From NCBI GenBank assembly GCA_023205875.1, contig CP060764.1, forward strand, positions 372,001 through 436,000: a stretch of DNA of 64,000 nucleotides, given 5' to 3'. The notes under the pieces were generated by a model, which saw only the letters and a program-made list of their open reading frames with translations, made no database searches and was not told the origin of the DNA. Source of the DNA: Chloropicon primus. Lineage: Eukaryota. The position numbers and the translations under genes were made by a program. This document shows, piece after piece, positions 13,654-40,227 of this stretch; within the stretch, counting starts at the first letter, position 1, and every line of letters starts with the position of its first letter.

Positions 13654-14677
13654 ATGACGGAGACACTTTCTTTCGGAGCGCTCGGAAAGGCAGCCAAGGA
13701 CCTCCTCAGCGGCGGCTTCCAGCTGAACCAGAAGGTTACCGCGACCACCAAGACTGACACTGGCGTCGACTTCACCGTCAGTGGTGTGAAGAAGGACGAC
13801 AAGCTCGATGGAGACATCAAGGCGGCTTACAAGGCGTCCTGCGGGTACTCCGCGGACATCAAAGTCTCCGCAGACTCCAAGGTGACTTCCACCATCGCAT
13901 ACTCTAAGCTCTTCCCAGGGCTCAAGGTCTCCCTCAACGGGTCCATCCCTGACAAGGCCTCCGGAAAGGTAAGAGACCGGCGTCGACCAGAGACTGCGTG
14001 TGCCCCAGACATGTTCGCTGGCGTCTTCGTTCGTTCGATCCGCCACCAAAACCGAATCGTTGTTGCTGTTTTCAATCCGAGTGTGCTTCGAAGAGATCTT
14101 CGTAGGTTTTCTGGTCCCCGAGGACACCGAACAGAGCACTGACTCTCTTCCCTTCTTTCGGCAACAGTTGTCCTTCAACTTCACCAAGCCTCTTTACACC
14201 TTGAACGGCAACGTGGGTCTCACCAGCACCCCTAAGGCTGAGTGCAGCATGAGCGTCGGCCACGGAGGACTCAGCGTCGGAGCTGAGGCCGGATACTGCA
14301 CAAAGACCACCTCCGTCACCAAGTGGAGCCTTGGTGCCGCTTATGTTGCGTCTGACTACAAGTGCGCCCTCATCGTGGGGGACAAGGGTGACTCTGTCAA
14401 GGCCTCCTACGTTCACACCGTCTCTGCGGATACGTCTGTCGGAGGAGAGGTCGTTAGAAAGTTCGGAGCTGACAGCACCACTTTCACCGTTGGAGCTGCT
14501 CACAAGCTAGAGAACGGAGCTTCCACGAAGGCCAAGATAGACAACTCCGGTATCGCTTCTCTGTTGTACGAGCAGGAGTTCGCCCCTAAGTCAAAGACCG
14601 CTGTCACCCTGCAGTTCGACACCATGAACCTCAACAAGTCTGCGAAGGTTGGAGTCGCTATGGACTTCAGGTCGTAA
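13654..14677 (+). CDS. VDAC: Mitochondrial outer membrane porin
   Basis: Exons 13654-13968 and 14168-14677. N-terminal FGALGKAAKDLL helix, alternating beta-strands, TKAKIDNSG and C-terminal KVGVAMDF. Confidence 0.92.
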
Positions 14678-14852
14678 ACAAGTGGGAGCTGACACGGCGC
14701 CCTTGCAAAAATAAACGACGCCGTAAACATGATAAATGAATGGAGTAAATCTGTGAAAAAAAAGTAAAACTTTTTGAGACTCTCTCTCTCTCTCTCCCTG
14801 GAAATGGGACGCCACTTCCCGTGCGCTCCGCAGCAGCAACATCGCGCCATCG

Positions 14853-16087
14853 TTAGATTTTGCTGCAGACGGCATTCGTGAAGTCTCTCGTCGTGCTCTT
14901 GCCCCCAAGGTCTCCAGTGAGATACTTGCCCTCTGCGATCGTGCCAAGCAAGGCCTTCTCGATCTTGTCGGCGTGCGTCCCGAGCTCCATGTGCCTCAGC
15001 AGCATGACGCTGCTCAACAACAAGGCCGTTGGATTCGCAAGGTCCTTGCCTGCGATATCTGGGGCGGTTCCGTGCACCGCCTCGGCCAGGGCTATCCCTC
15101 CGTCGCCGACGTTCAGACTTGGAGTGACCCCGAGCCCACCGACCAAGCCCGCACACAAATCGCTCACAATATCACCGTAAAGGTTTGGCATGACGAGGAC
15201 GTCGAACTGGGAGGGGTCCTTCACCAGCTGCATGCAGCAGTTGTCAATGATCTTCTCCTCGAACTCGATTTCCGGGTTCTTCTCCGCGATGGCTCTGCAG
15301 CACTCGAGGAAGAGTCCGTCCGCCTTCTTCATGATGTTGGCCTTGTGCACCGCAGTCACCTTGGATCTGTTGTTCTCCTTCGCGTAACGAAAGGCGTACT
15401 CCGCGACCCTCCTGCTCGCTTTCTCCGTGATCACCTTGAGGGACTCCACCACGCCTGGGACGACCTCGTGCTCCAGCCCCGAGTACTCCCCCTCCGTGTT
15501 CTCCCTGATGGTCACCAAGTTCACGTTGTCATACTGTCGAGGCGCGGCGAGCAAAGGAACACACAAGCGGTCAGCCTCAGAACTGGAACGCCACGAGAGC
15601 AAACTCAAGCGAGGAAGCACCACCTACCTTTGTTTTGTATCCTGGAATCGAGAAGCAGGGGCGGATGTTGGCGTACAAACCGAGCTGCACGCCAACAAGC
15701 CGGGGGCAGAGAGGAAGCAGAACAAGGTGTGTCAGGCCAGGTGCGCGCCGCAAAGAGAAAAGAAAAAGAACAGAAACGTACCTCCTTCCTCAGCGTGAGG
15801 TTCAGACTCCTGTGGCCCTTGCCGATTGGCGTCGCCATGGGCCCCTTCAAGCCCAAGCCGTTCCTCAGCAGCGAGTCGAGGGCCTCCCTCGTCACCATGG
15901 ACGACGTCGAGGGGTCTATGACTTCGGGACTGAAGTGGTGCTCCTCCCACTGCAAGGGAACGCTTGCCACCTCGAAGACTTGCCTCACCGCCTTGGCTAT
16001 CTCTGGCCCAATCCCATCGCCTGGCAAAAACGTCGCAAGTGGAACCCCACCTCCTCTGACCTTGCTCGCTATCCCTCGCGCAGCCAT
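14853..16087 (-). CDS. NAD-dependent isocitrate dehydrogenase, catalytic subunit
   Basis: Exons 16087-15782, 15684-15628, 15533-14853. [54 protein letters not shown], with catalytic Arg/Asp residues retained. Confidence 0.95.
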
Positions 16088-16328
16088 GCTCACACACACA
16101 CACACACACACACTCTTCCCTAACGACCGCCAAATCCAACAAGGCACCGCTCGTTCGAAAGCTCTCGAGACGTTCTTTCGTCTAGCGAGGACCACCACCC
16201 CTTCACCTCTACGTGTCGTCCGTGACCCTTCCCTATTGGTATTGGTATTGGGTATCACTCCCTCCACTCCTCGTCTGCCTGCCTGCTGCTGCTCTGCACT
16301 TTACAGCGAGGACGGAGGTGGCACCTTG

Positions 16329-16362
<34 letters not shown>

Positions 16363-16472
16363 TGAAGAGGAAGACGAGGACGAGGAGGAGGCCGTGACTG
16401 GACGAAGCGCCATCCTTGCCTTGTTTCACGTCTGTTGCAGGTTTTGGTTTTGGTTTTGGTTTGTTGTTTCTC

Positions 16473-16539
<67 letters not shown>
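16473..16539 (+). repeat. (ATTG)n tetranucleotide microsatellite
   Basis: About 16-17 perfect copies immediately upstream of the ATG at 16550. Confidence 0.95.
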
Positions 16540-16549
16540 CAGGAGAAGG

Positions 16550-17677
16550 ATGATGTTGAGCCGCCTTGGTAGGATATGCTCGAGTTTGTCTCGACAGGGG
16601 TTAGTGAGTCGGGCTCTCCTCAGCACCTCGACGTACGTCCATCGGCCAGGAGAGGGAAGCGTGAAACGCGTCACGCTTCTTCCTGGGGATGGCATCGGTC
16701 CTGAGGTCACCCAGTGCGTGGAGCGTGTGGTGGACGTCATGAAGGTTCCCATTGTGTGGGAGAAGTTCAATTCGATCTCCGGAGCGGACGCTGACGGGCA
16801 CCCCGTGGAGGCCCTGCCCGAAGAGCTTCTCGCTAGCCTGAGAAGGAACAAGGTCTGCATCAAAGGCACGCTCTTTGCTCCTTTGTATAAGGAGAACACG
16901 AACACGCAGTCCCTCAATGTCCTGCTGAGGAAGGAGCTGGACCTTTACGTGAACCTTGTCCACGCCTTTTCGATCCCTGAAGTCCAAACTCGCCACGAGG
17001 ACATTGACATTGTCATCGTCAGGGAGAACACGGAGGGGGAGTACTCGGGGCTGGAGCACGAGGTCGTCCCAGGCGTGGTGGAGTCCCTCAAGGTGATCAC
17101 GGAGAAAAACTCCAGGCGCATCGCCGAGTATGCCTTTGAGTACGCCCTGATGAACAACAGGAAGAAGGTCACCGCTGTGCACAAGGCGAACATCATGAAG
17201 CTCGGAGACGGGCAGTTCCTGTCCGTCTGCAGGGAAACGGCGGCCAAGTTCCCAACGATTGAGTTCGAGGAGATGATTGTGGACGCCACCTGCATGCGTC
17301 TCGTGAGCAACCCGCAAGACTTCGATGTCATGGTGACGCCAAACTTGTACGGCAACCTGATTGCCAACCTCGCTGCAGGGCTTGCGGGCGGGGCAGGAAT
17401 CGTACCCGGAGTGAACCTGGGCTCCGAAGGAATCGCGGTGTTTGAGCAAGGCGCGAGGCACGTGGCCCGATCGTTGCAGGGGAAGAACCTCGCCAACCCA
17501 ACGGCAATGCTTTTGAGCTCGGCGATGCTCTTCCGCCACCTGCAGTGGCCATCGATGGCAGACAGGCTCGAGACTGCCATCATGAAAGTCCTCCAGGATC
17601 CAGCGTTGCACACGACAGACATTGACGGAAGTGCTACTACAAGCATGTACATGGACGCCATCGTCAAGGAGCTTTAG
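16550..17677 (+). CDS. NAD-dependent isocitrate dehydrogenase, regulatory subunit
   Basis: Intronless. LYVNLVH, NLYGNLIAN and FEQGARH replace the catalytic motifs, as expected for the non-catalytic subunit. Mitochondrial presequence-like N-terminus. Confidence 0.95.
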   Translation: MMLSRLGRICSSLSRQGLVSRALLSTSTYVHRPGEGSVKRVTLLPGDGIGPEVTQCVERVVDVMKVPIVWEKFNSISGADADGHPVEALPEELLASLRRNKVCIKGTLFAPLYKENTNTQSLNVLLRKELDLYVNLVHAFSIPEVQTRHEDIDIVIVRENTEGEYSGLEHEVVPGVVESLKVITEKNSRRIAEYAFEYALMNNRKKVTAVHKANIMKLGDGQFLSVCRETAAKFPTIEFEEMIVDATCMRLVSNPQDFDVMVTPNLYGNLIANLAAGLAGGAGIVPGVNLGSEGIAVFEQGARHVARSLQGKNLANPTAMLLSSAMLFRHLQWPSMADRLETAIMKVLQDPALHTTDIDGSATTSMYMDAIVKEL

Positions 17678-17689
17678 ACCTAAGGTTCG

Positions 17690-17694
17690 TGTAA
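17690..17694 (+). promoter_or_regulatory. TGTAA polyadenylation signal (representative)
   Basis: TGTAA recurs shortly after + strand stop codons (4580, 17690, 28671, 29992, 48595). UGUAA is the known chlorophyte poly(A) signal. Confidence 0.55.
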
Positions 17695-17724
17695 ATACAT
17701 TCTCTCCGCTTATTCTTGGTTGCG

Positions 17725-18795
17725 TCACAGGCGCTCCAGAAGGCCCGCTATGTTGTTCACGATCGCCATGTCGATCCCGTGGTCCCTCAGCGGCTTGAAG
17801 AAGTGGGCTTCCCCCGTGTACAGCAGAAAGGAGAGAGTCACCGGGATGGCGAAAGCCTTGGGGGGCTTTCCGAAACGCTTGTGCAGCAGGGACTCCGCGA
17901 GCACGTAGAACCCTTGGAATGAGAAGTACTTGAGCCACGACCACGTCACGACGCCTCCCGAGACGTACGCAAAGCAGACCTCGTGCATGATCCCGCTCAT
18001 CGCAAAACACGCGAGAGTCGCGAGCGACGTCCTCCCCAACGACCGCCGCCTCCGTTGCTTCGCCGTCCCCTTTCGAACGAGCTCTCCTTCCATGATCGGA
18101 TCGTAGACGACGACCTTGAGGAGCTTGGCGACGTGTTGGTTCCAGCGGAGGGACCAGAATTCCCGGAGGGAGGCCGACGCGTAGAACAGCTGGAAGCTTC
18201 TCTCCACCGGCAGGTTATTCAACACCGTTGCCGATATGCAGCCCAGGCCATCCTCCACGATGCCAAGGAGCGCGTAAAGCCCGAAGCAGAAGATGAAGTC
18301 CATCACGTACCTGTTGTAACTGTTTTTCGACAGCAAGGACACGACGCCGCAGAGCACGATGCCCTTGGCGATCACTTTGCCCCCGTACTCGGCCAGCTGG
18401 TCCCTGAGAGGGTGGCCGCCAGCCTTGTCCTTCCCCGGCCTCGGCGAGAAGGGCAAGAGCAGAACCATCGCAAAGGAGACCAAGTCTTGATCGACCAGAG
18501 TCAGGGGACCCCTCCCGAAGCTGAAGGCCAGCACCTTGAAGTTCGACCACCAGGCAAACTGCCCAGCAAGTACGGCTCTCGCCACCACCTGCTCCCTGCT
18601 CACGATCAGGGGCACGAACAGACCAACAACCATGTAGGGAAGGACAAGAATTAACCGACCGACTCCGGGCCTCTCCCTCCTGCTCGCCAGGACCATCAGC
18701 CCCGCGGCGAGCACGCTCAACGCCAGCACAAGCCTGGTACCGTGATCCCCATCACCACTCGAAGGTGGGTGTTTGAAGCTGAGCCACGACGCCAT
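17725..18795 (-). CDS. MBOAT wax-synthase-like (long-chain-alcohol O-fatty-acyltransferase) protein
   Basis: WWSNFKVLAFSFGRGPL, SASLREFWSLRWN, FAMSGIMHE with the catalytic His. ATG at 18795. Confidence 0.88.
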   Translation of the reverse strand: MASWLSFKHPPSSGDGDHGTRLVLALSVLAAGLMVLASRRERPGVGRLILVLPYMVVGLFVPLIVSREQVVARAVLAGQFAWWSNFKVLAFSFGRGPLTLVDQDLVSFAMVLLLPFSPRPGKDKAGGHPLRDQLAEYGGKVIAKGIVLCGVVSLLSKNSYNRYVMDFIFCFGLYALLGIVEDGLGCISATVLNNLPVERSFQLFYASASLREFWSLRWNQHVAKLLKVVVYDPIMEGELVRKGTAKQRRRRSLGRTSLATLACFAMSGIMHEVCFAYVSGGVVTWSWLKYFSFQGFYVLAESLLHKRFGKPPKAFAIPVTLSFLLYTGEAHFFKPLRDHGIDMAIVNNIAGLLERL

Positions 18796-36067: not shown

Positions 36068-39000
36068 TCAAAGACACAGAGTGGTTTGGGCCTTCCTTGA
36101 GGAGTACGATCTTTGACTGTACAAAGACGAGCTGGATGGACTTCTCATCACGTCTTGCAGCTCATCAAACTTCGCGAAGTCTATGGTGGAACGCCCGTCC
36201 CTGAGCACCATCATATCGGCGAACCTCTTTGAGAGCTCGAGCTGGGAGGCGCTGTTATATGAGCACTTTGCACAAACCTCAGCCTGGTAGACGGGGTCGA
36301 GGGCCGTCACGATGACCTGGAAAGCCATGACGTTGTCTGGATTTTTCATGTCTTCGGGGCTCAGGCTGAACAAAGGAGACTCCTCGTCGATCCTGTGAGT
36401 AATGTTGTAGAATCCGCTGATCGTTCCAGGCAACGCCACGGGCAGCTCGACGATTTTGACAAAGTCCTCGCCCTCGGAAGTCTCCTGCTCCTTCAGCACA
36501 AACAATCGCAGCGACGGATTGTAAAGGGTGTGGCAGCGGAGGTTACCAACGCGAAGGCAGAGGTGCCGGACCCCATCTCGCGTGAACAGGCAGATCTTGT
36601 CCGAGAAAACCACATCTGCTTTCGGAGACTGGAACTTGGCCAGCACCGCAGCGAAGACGAAGACGTTGATCAGGATGCCCGACAACTGCGAGAGCGTCGC
36701 AATCAAGTACCCAACGTTCGATGTGGGGAAGACCGTTCCATACCCCATAGAGATGACATTGGCTGCGGCAAACCTGAAAGCCATGATGACCTGCGGCGGA
36801 GGATCCCCGTTGTAGAAGATCTCCGCCTCCTCGGTGTCATTGTCGAAACGCAGGGGGATGCTGATCAGGGCGACCACGACGATTGGAAGACCGTACATGA
36901 TCATTGCCAAAAGGCAGCAGAACCACCAAGACTTCTCCAGAATGAGAAAGTACAGGGTCGAGGGCGTAAACCTCAGCAGTCTTGAAGACGTGGTTGCCGG
37001 CCTTGAAGTTGAAATCGAGCCCGCCCTTTTAATCAGCCCCCGAACCTTTTCTTTCTTCCCTCTCTGGGATTGGAGCGCGGAAAGGATTGGAGGAATGCCT
37101 TTCGCTATTTCCCAGTTTGATCCCTTGGCCAATCCATCGTCATCGACGCTTGACCCGCATGGAAGTTCCGCGCCATTCTGGTGGTTACGAGAGCTCTTCT
37201 CTCTCGCCTTGGCCAGAGCCTCTTGAATGACCGGCAAAAGCTCCGGGGACAAACCATAAATTTTCTGGCAGACCGTCCGCAGGATGTACACGTCCAGGTT
37301 GCCGCCTGGTGTGACCTCTCTGCCCAGCCCGAACACGGCTTCCCAGGACCCCCTCCCGGAGAACCTTTCGAGGTACGCAAACGTCAGAGGCGCGATCTCA
37401 GCGAAGGGTGACCCCAACTTTGCAAGGCCGCTCTCCGTCAGGTTGTAGACTGTCCACAGTTTCGAGACGAGGCGGCAATCCAACAGACCCGGTTCGTCGC
37501 CGCACAAGTAATCGCTCAGCGACAGGGCCTCCTCCCAACGACCAAGACCCTCCCTCACAATCCCTTGCAAGGCAGCCACCCCTTTGCTGACATCACCCTC
37601 GTCCGGATCAACGCCGTGCTTTTGCAGGAGGAAGGAGCGCATCCCGTTCGGCTTGGCAGGAGCCATGAGCAAGGCGAATGCCGCCATCTGCACGTCCAAC
37701 CCGTCTTTGCTCGCGCCTGCCATGGTTGGCGGCCTCGCACTTGCCAGGGAGCCCACGAGGGCTGACTTGACGACGAGCGTGTCGATTATGCTGTCGGTGC
37801 CGTCCAGCCACTCCTGGGACTGTGCCAGCCTGAGGCCCGGGGTCTCCATCTTTGCATTCACCTTTTTGTGCCACTCGGGCTTGTCCGCCAGGTCTGCACG
37901 GTAGCACCGGTACGCCTCGCCCGCTTCGGACAGGAGCAGGGCCACCGAAGCCGAGAAGGAGCACTCGGGCAGCATCGCAGATCGAGGGAACTCGGGTCCG
38001 TCCAGGACCGCGTCGCCGTAGCTCGCCCTGCCGCACCCCACAAGAAGCTCAATCTCCTCGCTCCTCGTGGGCGGCGCCTCGCTGTTGCACATCTCCGGCA
38101 GAGCGGGACGACTCATGGCGCGGACCACGTCTTCGTCTTCACCACGCCTGCTCCTGGCCAGAGCCTCTTGAATGACCGGCAAAAGCTCCGGGGACAAACC
38201 ATAAATTTTCTGGCAGACCGTCCGCAGGATGTACACGTCCAGGTTGCCGCCTGGTGTGACCTCTCTGCCCAGCCCGAACACGGCTTCCCAGGACCCCCTC
38301 CCGGAGAACCTTTCGAGGTACGCAAACGTCAGAGGCGCGATCTCAGCGAAGGGTGACCCCAACTTTGCAAGGCCGCTCTCCGTCAGGTTGTAGACTGTCC
38401 ACAGTTTCGAGACGAGGCGGCAATCCAACAGACCCGGTTCGTCGCCGCACAAGTAATCGCTCAGCGACAGGGCCTCCTCCCAACGACCAAGACCCTCCCT
38501 CACAATCCCTTGCAAGGCAGCCACCCCTTTGCTGACATCACCCTCGTCCGGATCAACGCCGTGCTTTTGCAGGAGGAAGGAGCGCATCCCGTTCGGCTTG
38601 GCAGGAGCCATGAGCAAGGCGAATGCCGCCATCTGCACGTCCAACCCGTCTTTGCTCGCGCCTGCCATGGTTGGCGGCCTCGCACTTGCCAGGGAGCCCA
38701 CGAGGGCTGACTTGACGACGAGCGTGTCGATTATGTTGTCGGTGCCGTCCAGCCACTCCTGGGACTGTGCCAGCCTGAGGCCCGGGGTCTCCATCTTTGC
38801 ATTCACCTTTTTGTGCCACTCGGGCTTGTCCGCCAGGTCTGCACGGTAGCACCGGTACGCCTCGCCCGCTTCGGACAGGAGCAGGGCCACCGAAGCCGAG
38901 AAGGAGCACTCGGGCAGCATCGCAGATCGAGGGAACTCGGGTCCGTCCAGGACCGCGTCGCCGTAGCTCGCCCTGCCGCACCCCACGAGAAGCTCAATCT

Positions 39001-40006
39001 CCTCGCTCCTCGTGGGCGGCGCCTCGCTGTTGCACATCTCCGGCAGAGCGGGACGACTCATGGCGCGGACCACGTCTTCGTCTTCACCACGCCTGCTCCT
39101 GGCCAGAGCCTCTTGAATGACCGGCAAAAGCTCCGGGGACAAACCATAAATTTTCTGGCAGACCGTCCGCAGGATGTACACGTCCAGGTTGCCGCCTGGT
39201 GTGACCTCTCTGCCCAGTCCGAACACGGCTTCCCAGGACCCCCTCCCGGAGAACCTTTCGAGGTACGCAAACGTCAGAGGCGCGATCTCAGCGAAGGGTG
39301 ACCCCAACTTTGCAAGGCCGCTCTCCGTCAGGTTGTAGACTGTCCACAGTTTCGAGACAAGGCGGCAATCCAACAGACCCGGTTCGTCGCCGCACAAGTA
39401 ATCGCTCAGCGACAGGGCCTCCTCCCAACGACCAAGACCCTCCCTCACAATCCCTTGCAAGGCAGCCACCCCTTTGCTGACATCACCCTCGTCCGGATCA
39501 ACGCCGTGCGTTTGCAGGAGGAAGGAGCGCATCCCGTTCGGCTTGGCAGGAGCCAAGGACAAGGCGAATGCCGCCATCAACACGTCCAACCCGTCTTTGC
39601 TCGCGCCTGCCATGGTTGGCGGCCTCGCACTTGCCAGGGAGCCCACGAGGGCTGACTTGACGACGAGCGTGTCGATTATGTTGTCGGTGCCGTCCAGCCA
39701 CTCCTGGGACTGTGCCAGCCTGAGGCCCGGGGTCTCCATCTTTGCATTCACCTTTTTGTGCCACTCGGGCTTGTCCACCAGGTCTGCACGGTAGCACCGG
39801 TACGCCTCGCCCGCTTCGGACAGGAGCAGGGCCACCGAAGCCGAGAAGCAGCACTCGTGCAGCATCGCAGATCGAGGGAACTCGGGTCCGTCCAGGACCG
39901 CGTCGCCGTAGCTCGCCCTGCCGCACCCCACGAGAAGCTCAATCTCCTCGCTCCTCGTGGGCGGCGCCTCGCTGTTGCACATCTCCGGCAGAGCGGGACG
40001 ACTCAT
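36068..40006 (-). CDS. Fusion of three DHAR/CLIC-like GST-fold units with an inward-rectifier K+ channel (Kir)
   Basis: Single uninterrupted ORF, first ATG at 40006. Each unit contains EC[CS]FS...DKPEW...ETPGL and YLCGDEPGLLDCRLVSKLW. The C-terminus has TM1, ISMGYG, TM2 AKFQSPK, VFSDK...RDG...CLRVGNLR and THRIDEESPL. Confidence 0.85.
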   Translation of the reverse strand: MSRPALPEMCNSEAPPTRSEEIELLVGCGRASYGDAVLDGPEFPRSAMLHECCFSASVALLLSEAGEAYRCYRADLVDKPEWHKKVNAKMETPGLRLAQSQEWLDGTDNIIDTLVVKSALVGSLASARPPTMAGASKDGLDVLMAAFALSLAPAKPNGMRSFLLQTHGVDPDEGDVSKGVAALQGIVREGLGRWEEALSLSDYLCGDEPGLLDCRLVSKLWTVYNLTESGLAKLGSPFAEIAPLTFAYLERFSGRGSWEAVFGLGREVTPGGNLDVYILRTVCQKIYGLSPELLPVIQEALARSRRGEDEDVVRAMSRPALPEMCNSEAPPTRSEEIELLVGCGRASYGDAVLDGPEFPRSAMLPECSFSASVALLLSEAGEAYRCYRADLADKPEWHKKVNAKMETPGLRLAQSQEWLDGTDNIIDTLVVKSALVGSLASARPPTMAGASKDGLDVQMAAFALLMAPAKPNGMRSFLLQKHGVDPDEGDVSKGVAALQGIVREGLGRWEEALSLSDYLCGDEPGLLDCRLVSKLWTVYNLTESGLAKLGSPFAEIAPLTFAYLERFSGRGSWEAVFGLGREVTPGGNLDVYILRTVCQKIYGLSPELLPVIQEALARSRRGEDEDVVRAMSRPALPEMCNSEAPPTRSEEIELLVGCGRASYGDAVLDGPEFPRSAMLPECSFSASVALLLSEAGEAYRCYRADLADKPEWHKKVNAKMETPGLRLAQSQEWLDGTDSIIDTLVVKSALVGSLASARPPTMAGASKDGLDVQMAAFALLMAPAKPNGMRSFLLQKHGVDPDEGDVSKGVAALQGIVREGLGRWEEALSLSDYLCGDEPGLLDCRLVSKLWTVYNLTESGLAKLGSPFAEIAPLTFAYLERFSGRGSWEAVFGLGREVTPGGNLDVYILRTVCQKIYGLSPELLPVIQEALAKAREKSSRNHQNGAELPCGSSVDDDGLAKGSNWEIAKGIPPILSALQSQRGKKEKVRGLIKRAGSISTSRPATTSSRLLRFTPSTLYFLILEKSWWFCCLLAMIMYGLPIVVVALISIPLRFDNDTEEAEIFYNGDPPPQVIMAFRFAAANVISMGYGTVFPTSNVGYLIATLSQLSGILINVFVFAAVLAKFQSPKADVVFSDKICLFTRDGVRHLCLRVGNLRCHTLYNPSLRLFVLKEQETSEGEDFVKIVELPVALPGTISGFYNITHRIDEESPLFSLSPEDMKNPDNVMAFQVIVTALDPVYQAEVCAKCSYNSASQLELSKRFADMMVLRDGRSTIDFAKFDELQDVMRSPSSSSLYSQRSYSSRKAQTTLCL

Positions 40007-40031
40007 GGCGCGGACCACGTCTTCGTCTTCA
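37210..40031. repeat. Tandem triplication of a 945-bp coding unit
   Basis: Near-identical sequence at a 945-bp period (e.g. GGCCAGAGCC at 37211, 38156, 39101) with only a handful of substitutions. Confidence 0.97.
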
Positions 40032-40227
40032 ACCAACGCCAACTCTCTCCTCTCCTCTTCCTCTTCCTCTCTCTCTCTCTCTCCTCTGGCTGAAATCGAG
40101 AGAGAGAGAATAACGGGCGAGCAGGCGTTACGGCGATTGGGTTGTTGAGAGGATAAGAATAGCATCGCGAGACGTTCGCAAGTACGCGTGTACCAGGCGT
40201 CGCCAACTGCGAGAGAAGGCCTAGACG

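What the first reader, a model, noticed from the sequence alone, without database searches (positions are those of the whole stretch)
15420..17107. Perfect 89-bp inverted repeat shared by two otherwise divergent IDH subunit genes
Seen: 15420-15508 (minus) and 17019-17107 (plus) are identical over 89 nt, covering 29 codons ([29 protein letters not shown]) including every synonymous position. The nearby conserved [11 protein letters not shown] block does show synonymous differences. Established: catalytic and regulatory NAD-IDH subunits are ancient paralogues, so silent sites should be saturated. Inference: recent or recurrent gene conversion homogenising a segment at or near the subunit-contact (clasp) region. 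A crossover within the repeat would invert the 1.5-kb interval and swap the N-termini in frame, giving chimeric subunits.
Basis: partly seen in the sequence, partly recalled or inferred. Interest (0 to 1): 0.7.

Follow-up and report, generated by a model that had tools for sequence, protein, structure and literature searches.

The report
Gene conversion between ancient IDH subunits
In the tiny marine alga Chloropicon primus, two very old, head-to-head genes for the two different subunits of a Krebs-cycle enzyme share an identical 89-base stretch that is not identical in a sister species, most likely because one gene's DNA was copied onto the other fairly recently (gene conversion, a known process), and no flipped form of the DNA between them was seen.

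Summary
Observation confirmed. 15420-15508(-) and 17019-17107(+) are identical over exactly 89 nt: 29 of 29 codons, against 69 of 142 elsewhere (P about 2e-10). The genes are the catalytic and regulatory NAD-IDH subunits of Chloropicon primus, 50% identical, split before chlorophytes and land plants parted. Read-derived contigs from two studies, one a marine metatranscriptome, collapse into an exact 89-nt piece, so this is no polishing error. A C. roscoffensis-like contig keeps the head-to-head pair and the peptide, but only 15 of 28 codons match (background level), and an intron splits the block. Protein constraint therefore does not explain the identity; lineage-specific ectopic gene conversion does, probably from the catalytic to the regulatory gene. 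The tract fills the amino-acid-identical block end to end. One event versus repeated events is unresolved; protein hints of older transfers exist but are weak. The flip is unsupported and could not be tested directly; both chimeras would lack active-site residues. This is a new, well-controlled member of a known kind (Capitella Dlx, mtrA, tuf). The scan has noted similar tracts between other inverted paralogues on other DNA.

The parts
15420..15508 (-). Copy A of the 89-nt identical tract, in exon 3 of the catalytic gene (residues 131-159)
   Evidence: exact 89-nt record in run X1
17019..17107 (+). Copy B of the 89-nt identical tract, in the regulatory gene (residues 158-186)
   Evidence: exact 89-nt record in run X4
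14853..16087 (-). Gene A: NAD-IDH catalytic subunit, 347 aa; exons 16087-15782, 15684-15628, 15533-14853
   Evidence: spliced product reads as P0166, named catalytic subunit 5 of NAD-dependent IDH, Chloropicon primus; best PDB match human IDH3 alpha
15685..15781 (-). Intron 1 of gene A (97 nt, GT..AG)
   Evidence: joint 15684-15782 in runs X3, X5 and X4, X11
15534..15627 (-). Intron 2 of gene A (94 nt, GT..AG); ends 25 nt before the tract
   Evidence: joint 15533-15628 in runs X3, X5 and X4, X11
16550..17677 (+). Gene B: NAD-IDH regulatory subunit, intronless, 375 aa; has Ala, Val, Asn, Asn at the places of alpha Thr74, Arg98, Asp230, Asp234
   Evidence: TIGR00175 above cut-off; nearest named cluster holds the C. 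roscoffensis regulatory subunit; best PDB matches IDH3 gamma/beta; residues
16088..16549 (.). 462-nt divergent spacer between the two start codons, with (CA)n, (GAC)n and (ATTG)n runs; presumed shared promoter region (inferred, not tested)
   Evidence: sequence; the spacer in L001 is about 220 nt
15509..17018 (.). 1510-nt interval that a crossover in the tract would invert; no inverted form seen

Best explanation
The 89-nt repeat is real and is most likely a tract of ectopic gene conversion between the adjacent, inverted catalytic and regulatory NAD-IDH genes, fixed in the C. primus lineage after it split from C. roscoffensis. Shown: the identity, saturation elsewhere, absence of DNA identity in the sister species, and tract ends that coincide with the ends of the amino-acid-identical block. 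Inferred mechanism: purifying selection keeps a 28-29-residue peptide the same in both subunits, which leaves about 80% DNA identity (72 of 89 nt in the unconverted sister pair). The two copies lie 1.5 kb apart in inverted orientation, so a break in one can be repaired from the other. Copying stops at, or selection trims it to, the subunit-specific flanks, and only non-crossover products persist because a crossover would give two defective chimeras. The catalytic gene was probably the donor of the last event. The tract is likely close to neutral: a by-product of linkage plus protein conservation, not a switch.
For: 29 of 29 against 69 of 142 identical codons, P about 2e-10. Exact 89-nt records in runs of two studies. 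Sister control L001: same head-to-head pair and same neighbouring genes, 28 of 29 residues identical but only 15 of 28 codons (expected 14.2, P = 0.46). The primus tract is not conserved in the regulatory orthologue (15 of 28, expected 14.4). Direction: the tract in primus B matches the sister's catalytic gene at 20 of 29 (expected 13.8, P = 0.0076). Flanks drop sharply: 14 of 30 nt upstream, 20 of 30 downstream starting with 5 mismatches in a row. Catalytic and regulatory proteins form separate clades with 100% support, each holding land plants and chlorophytes. Zero differences at 20.7 synonymous sites bound divergence at 0.145 or less. C. primus is reported as mostly diploid with recombination genes and suspected mitotic conversion between alleles (PMC6731263 passages).
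Against: Both genes could be read as DNA in only two species, and only one is homogenised. No polymorphism shared by both copies was seen, so one event and repeated events cannot be told apart. The direction test rests on one outgroup at near saturation (the A-to-A orthologue comparison itself gives P = 0.053) and is one of six comparisons. At protein level the residue at 158 points the other way (regulatory to catalytic), which needs a separate older event or convergence. No recombination intermediate or rate was measured.
Confidence: 0.85

Rival explanations
1. Long-running, repeated conversion across Chloropicophyceae. The linked pair has exchanged this segment many times and in both directions, carrying regulatory-type residues into the catalytic subunit, and intron insertions in the block switch the exchange off. 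This extends the best explanation and does not exclude it.
For: The tract fills the conserved block end to end; one event with random ends inside the block would give full identity with probability 0.013. Position 158 is Glu in 6 of 6 Chloropicon-like catalytic and 4 of 4 Chloropicon-like regulatory proteins, but Arg in 100 and Glu in 0 of 102 other green catalytic subunits. P0170, the deepest-branching Chloropicon-like catalytic protein, matches regulatory subunits at 19 of 20 residues in 162-181 against 15 for its best catalytic match, the top outlier of 108. The species with an intron in the block is the one without identity.
Against: Human IDH3 alpha also has Glu at 158 and a similar following helix, so reversal or convergence is possible. 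Mismatch clusters at both flanks could stop one event at the same ends. In 14 same-species or same-strain catalytic/regulatory pairs there is no general excess of within-species identity (primus z = 2.2 for 131-195, roscoffensis-like 0.4, Chlamydomonas -2.5). P0170 is an unnamed environmental protein with no DNA in hand. The half of the sister block before the intron is not clearly elevated (11 of 14 codons, rich in two-fold sites). A divergent regulatory-type contig in run X11 crosses its block unbroken (its partner gene was not seen).
Confidence: 0.3
2. Invertible segment: crossovers in the repeat flip the 1.5-kb interval and yield functional chimeric subunits at appreciable frequency.
For: The geometry allows an in-frame swap. 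In Salmonella, tuf conversion is linked to inversions (PMC6735719 passages).
Against: The A5'-B3' chimera would have Asn at Asp230 and Asp234; the B5'-A3' chimera would have Ala at Thr74 and Val at Arg98. Thr74, Arg98 and Asp230 are listed as conserved isocitrate-site residues (PMC5241874; the role of Asp234 is recalled). Parental joins are seen: X9 record 24 runs unbroken over 16547-18000 and X11 record 3 runs from exon 1 of A through the tract to 15381. P0166 and P0001 are each on 2 contigs in parental form. None of the 8 runs laid lists a joint in register with the tract.
Confidence: 0.04
3. Selection on a shared DNA or RNA element (structure, binding site, co-localisation signal) keeps the two copies identical.
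For: The tract ends match a functional block. One of four folds was somewhat stable (copy A with flanks, z = -2.14).
Against: The 89 nt alone fold no better than shuffles (z = -0.99) and the sister's regulatory block gives z = -0.22. The sequence is conserved neither between orthologues nor between the sister's paralogues. Selection alone would have to fix about 14 independent synonymous matches.
Confidence: 0.05
4. Chance under peptide constraint and GC-rich codon bias, or an assembly/polishing artefact.
For: The peptide is nearly invariant in green algae and GC3 is 0.76-0.80.
Against: P about 2e-10 after correcting for degeneracy class; the same peptide gives 15 of 28 in the sister; read-derived 89-nt records in two studies.
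Confidence: 0.02

Closest known systems
Capitella teleta Dlxa/Dlxb gene conversion (PMC3199776, passages read)
   Same: Closely linked, inverted, otherwise divergent paralogues with a short tract (150 bp) of full nucleotide identity limited to the most conserved protein segment; a related species shows none.
   Different: Tail-to-tail transcription factors from an annelid-age duplication, with the tract running into an intron. Here head-to-head, 462 nt apart, subunits of one hetero-oligomeric enzyme with different roles, split at least before chlorophytes and land plants.
mtrA-1/mtrA-2 long-lasting gene conversion in methanogens (PMC4632066, abstract and outline; survey PMC6053082, passages)
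   Same: Ancient paralogues of an enzyme complex, linked, homogenised over part of the gene while the rest stays distinct.
   Different: A whole domain is homogenised, shown in many species. Here 29 codons, shown in one species, and recurrence is unproven.
Mammalian pairs BMP8A/B, DDX19A/B, TUBG1/2 (PMC2720389, passages)
   Same: Mosaic genes with converted and divergent parts; BMP8A/B are inverted.
   Different: Multi-exon tracts over 97% identical including introns, pairs about 100 million years old, no overlap with functional domains found. Here a single 89-nt tract in proteins only 50% identical.
Salmonella tufA/tufB conversion with inversion (PMC6735719, passages)
   Same: Inverted repeats in coding sequence; recombination gives conversion and can invert the interval; the inversion is selected against.
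   Different: The tuf proteins are identical and the inversion is shown by experiment. Here the inversion is hypothetical and would join halves of unlike subunits.
Human IDH3 alpha/gamma heterodimer (PMC5241874, passages; PDB matches)
   Same: Catalytic plus regulatory subunit pair; the tract maps to alpha 119-147, holding Arg119, Tyr126, Lys142 and, by residue numbers, the clasp strands that pair pseudo-symmetrically.
   Different: In the human alpha alignment the segment differs from the algal peptide at several residues; no shared DNA tract was reported in the passages read.

Membership tests
Ectopic (interlocus) gene conversion tract | Paralogues are more alike in the tract than their age allows, at synonymous sites too | tested here: met
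   29 of 29 against 69 of 142 codons, P about 2e-10
Ectopic (interlocus) gene conversion tract | In the tract, paralogues of one species are closer than orthologues of different species | tested here: met
   pA/pB 29 of 29; pA/rA 20 of 29; pB/rB 15 of 28
Ectopic (interlocus) gene conversion tract | The duplication predates the species split (not a recent duplicate) | tested here: met
   separate clades at 100% support; same arrangement in L001
Ectopic (interlocus) gene conversion tract | Non-reciprocal transfer with a definable donor | tested here: inconclusive
   primus B tract nearer the sister's catalytic gene, P = 0.0076, one outgroup, near saturation
Long-lasting concerted evolution | Within-species homogenisation repeated in several species | tested here: not met
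   1 of 2 species with both genes in hand; the L001 pair is at background. Other species have protein hints only
Long-lasting concerted evolution | Polymorphisms shared by both copies within a species | tested here: inconclusive
   no variant in the tract in run X4; its flanks differ at 4 of 450 and 5 of 623 nt, too few to expect one in 89 nt
Invertible (phase-variable) DNA segment | Both orientations exist as molecules | not testable with these tools
   only contigs were offered, and they cannot phase across an 89-nt repeat; parental joins seen in X9 and X11
Invertible (phase-variable) DNA segment | Both orientations give intact products | tested here: not met
   by sequence, each chimera lacks conserved site residues; activity not measured
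Invertible (phase-variable) DNA segment | A dedicated recombinase or short recombinase sites | not tested
   the four neighbours scanned are an epimerase, a porin, an MBOAT and a CitMHS-type transporter; the rest of the window was not scanned and no genome is held
Mitochondrial NAD-IDH catalytic/regulatory pair | One subunit with the full set of site residues, one lacking several | tested here: met
   A has 13 of 13 residues checked; B differs at 4; TIGR00175 best family

The most novel reading that the evidence does not exclude
In Chloropicophyceae the catalytic and regulatory IDH genes, separated for roughly a billion years (age recalled, not measured), became or stayed head-to-head and still trade DNA at the pseudo-symmetric clasp segment. 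Repeated conversion has rewritten residues of the catalytic subunit with regulatory ones (Glu158 class-wide; 162-181 in P0170), and newly inserted introns in the block act as off-switches. The locus would be a natural experiment on how introns insulate ancient paralogues and how far subunit identity can be overwritten.
Probability: 0.25. Interest if true: 0.62.

Novelty: new member of a known kind. Interest (0 to 1): 0.42.

Why it matters
It shows that paralogues only 50% identical, with different roles in one enzyme, can still exchange DNA when they lie 1.5 kb apart and share one fully conserved peptide. The case has an unusually clean built-in control: a sister species with the same layout and peptide but an intron in the block and no identity. 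It gives a small, testable system for tract limits set by selection and for introns as barriers to ectopic conversion. In practice, this segment misleads gene trees, synonymous-distance estimates and short-read mapping. The process itself is well known, and no functional effect is shown.

Tried and rejected
No whole genome is held, so no genome-wide control for other converted paralogues was possible. One search used a wrong frame for gene A; its statistics were discarded and redone (its protein file was overwritten). The pattern scan found 4 loci in metagenome contigs, 0 in prokaryote genomes and, with a shorter pattern, 0 in viral contigs. Of the 4, only L001 holds both genes; L003 is the same species and ends in the spacer; L002 and L004 hold a regulatory-type gene alone in 1551 and 2677 nt, so linkage is untested there. 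Run X5 shows the 5' half of B entering the tract with no cover on the 3' half; a part without cover proves nothing (low depth, clipping or filtering), so it is not counted as a chimera. An opposite-strand joint in X12 (15185/17203) is out of register with the tract and comes from a diverged record; rejected. P0171 looks like a join of two species' catalytic genes and was left out, as were P0172, P0268, P0281 and catalytic proteins under 320 aa (102 kept as non-Chloropicon catalytic). The segment tree did not finish and was not repeated; the whole-protein tree is the quick one (SH-aLRT only). RNA structure as a cause: weak. A general protein-level signal of concerted evolution in 14 pairs: none. 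GC3 in the tract is 27 of 29 against 0.76-0.80 for the genes; GC-biased conversion was not tested. No structure or complex was predicted, since the binding of these subunits is textbook. Literature: no paper held all of NAD-dependent IDH, catalytic, regulatory subunit and gene conversion; the one hit for Chloropicon plus isocitrate dehydrogenase is on Picochlorum (listing only); (listings only) showed no report of this tract. The main texts of PMC6731263 and PMC12301720 have 0 hits for isocitrate; one supplement file of the latter was searched with 0 hits, and other supplements, not seen, may bear on this.

Full report
Observation. The two arms are identical over exactly 89 nt and cannot be extended. 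Gene A (minus strand; exons 16087-15782, 15684-15628, 15533-14853; 347 aa) and gene B (plus strand; 16550-17677; intronless; 375 aa) start 462 nt apart, head to head, and share 175 of 347 residues. Both introns of A appear as joints in four runs. In the tract 29 of 29 codons are identical; elsewhere 69 of 142 codons for identical residues match (41 of 47 two-fold, 18 of 58 four-fold, 9 of 31 six-fold, 1 of 6 Ile). The chance is 1.7e-10 with these rates and 5e-10 to 8e-10 from codon usage. Allowing for a few hundred possible window starts does not change the verdict (my arithmetic). The next longest identical run is 15 nt.

Identity of the genes. A is the protein named catalytic subunit 5 of NAD-dependent IDH of Chloropicon primus (P0166). 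B's nearest cluster (75%) holds the C. roscoffensis regulatory subunit. A matches human IDH3 alpha best (465 bits against 337 for beta); B matches gamma and beta slightly better than alpha (338 and 327 against 317). In a tree of 38 proteins the catalytic and regulatory sets are separated with 100% support and each holds land plants and chlorophytes (quick tree). A has all 13 site residues checked; B has Ala, Val, Asn, Asn at alpha Thr74, Arg98, Asp230, Asp234. The tract corresponds to alpha 119-147. It holds Arg119, Tyr126 and Lys142 and, judged by residue numbers in the passages read, the beta5-beta6 loop and the clasp strands (PMC5241874). No model was folded.

Not an artefact. Eight of 21 listed runs were laid, all as contigs. 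Run X1 has a record exactly 89 nt long on the tract at depth 267.5, with flanks at 131.7-154.7; X1 may be the window's own source. X3 breaks at the same edges. Run X4, a marine metatranscriptome of another study, has the same 89-nt record with no other letters, while the 3' flanking records of A and B differ from the window at 4 of 450 and 5 of 623 places. A polishing error could not produce this in independently assembled reads.

The control. A pattern scan gave four metagenome loci. L001 encodes the C. roscoffensis-type regulatory protein and keeps the whole neighbourhood: MBOAT, B, A, porin, epimerase (neighbours matched by eye from the sequence). Its paralogues share 28 of the 29 residues but only 15 of 28 codons (expected 14.2, P = 0.46) and 72 of 89 nt. 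Its catalytic gene has an 84-nt intron in the middle of the block (L001 2359-2442); a record in run X13 with sister-type letters stops at the same place. So peptide constraint and codon bias give background identity, and the primus tract arose or was refreshed after the two species split. With 0 differences at 20.7 synonymous sites the copies differ by at most 0.145 (95% bound), whereas orthologues are saturated (133 of 261). The intron is more likely a gain in the sister than a loss in primus: none of the three intron places of the sister's A is shared with primus, two of them resemble each other, a more distant species has a gene call that runs through the block on contigs up to 7.4 kb (P0289), and C. 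roscoffensis has more introns per gene (0.72 against 0.52-0.54; PMC12301720). This polarity is inferred.

Mechanism. The tract starts at the second base of the last differing codon and ends just before the next differing codon. The block is set by protein conservation, since it exists in the sister without DNA identity and across green algae. The DNA tract fills it end to end. I infer repair of one copy from the other, 1.5 kb away in inverted orientation, in a mostly diploid alga with recombination genes and suspected mitotic conversion (PMC6731263). The ends are fixed either by the mismatch clusters (14 of 30 nt upstream; five mismatches in a row downstream) or by selection against overwriting subunit-specific residues. 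One event with random ends inside the block would give full identity with probability 0.013, which favours repeated events, but mismatch-limited copying would give the same ends in one step. The last donor was probably A: primus B matches the sister's catalytic gene at 20 of 29 (expected 13.8, P = 0.0076) and its own orthologue at 15 of 28 (expected 14.4). This is one of six comparisons, with one outgroup.

Older events? Position 158 is Glu in all 6 Chloropicon-like catalytic and all 4 Chloropicon-like regulatory proteins, but Arg in 100 of 102 other green catalytic subunits. P0170 matches regulatory subunits at 19 of 20 residues just past the tract, against 15 for any catalytic one, the top outlier of 108. 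Against this: human alpha has Glu there and a similar helix, P0170 has no DNA in hand, and 14 species pairs show no general within-species excess. I put lineage-wide recurrence at about 0.3.

The flip. A crossover would be in frame, but one chimera would lack Asp230 and Asp234 and the other Thr74 and Arg98, so both are predicted to be defective. Parental joins are seen in X9 (record 24) and X11 (record 3), and no joint in register with the tract is listed in the 8 runs. Contigs cannot phase across the repeat, so rare inverted molecules are not excluded.

Known kin and novelty. The closest case is Capitella Dlxa/Dlxb: inverted, linked, divergent paralogues with a 150-bp identical tract at the conserved domain (PMC3199776, passages). 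mtrA (PMC4632066, abstract; PMC6053082, passages), three mammalian pairs (PMC2720389, passages) and tufA/tufB (PMC6735719, passages) are the wider class. My searches found no report of this tract; the library lacks most subscription papers. The scan's own notes hold several like cases in other genomes, which gave two paper leads and are not used as support. Verdict: real, a new member of a known kind, notable for the age and unlike roles of the partners and for the sister-species control. Interest 0.42.

Noticed in passing
L001 2020-2114 and 2701-2767: Introns 1 and 3 of the sister's catalytic gene resemble each other (85% over 39 nt, 86% over 35 nt), as expected of recently spread, introner-like introns. 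None of its three intron places is shared with C. primus.
   Followed up: partly
window 15486-15535, run X13 record 17: A 172-nt contig at depth 2 from another species' catalytic gene leaves the alignment seven codons into the block, with loose letters that read as a 5' splice site: possibly a second, independent intron in the same block.
   Followed up: no
P0008/P0216 and P0035/P0219: Regulatory and catalytic subunits of Symbiochloris (627,093 nt) and of Trebouxia C0009 (1,418,487 nt) are on contigs of equal length, so the linkage may be old in chlorophytes. Adjacency was not checked; the listed lengths differ for Chlamydomonas, Coccomyxa viridis, Ostreobium and Sanguina.
   Followed up: no
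window 36068-40165 (-): A 1365-aa ORF with three near-identical repeats of about 310 aa in front of a C-terminal part that looks like an inward-rectifier potassium channel (the channel label is my reading, not scanned).
   Followed up: no
window 16620, run X3: One base is left out in the single X3 contig covering this place, 22 nt from its end; not seen in X1 of the same sample. Probably a contig-end error.
   Followed up: no
window 14500-15508 and 17618-17747: RNA-type contigs run across the porin/gene A ends (X5 record 17) and from the MBOAT side into the last codons of gene B (X11 record 5), which suggests overlapping 3' ends of convergent genes; contigs cannot show transcript ends.
   Followed up: no
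L001 1081-1121 (-): The second half of the block in the sister's regulatory gene has several A/T-ending codons in a gene with GC3 0.82; this lowers its match to all other copies and weakens the direction test.
   Followed up: partly
P0166 positions 21 and 73: Leu is shared by all 10 Chloropicon-like catalytic and regulatory proteins but rare (3% or less) in other green subunits of either type: convergence or traces of other old exchanges.
   Followed up: no
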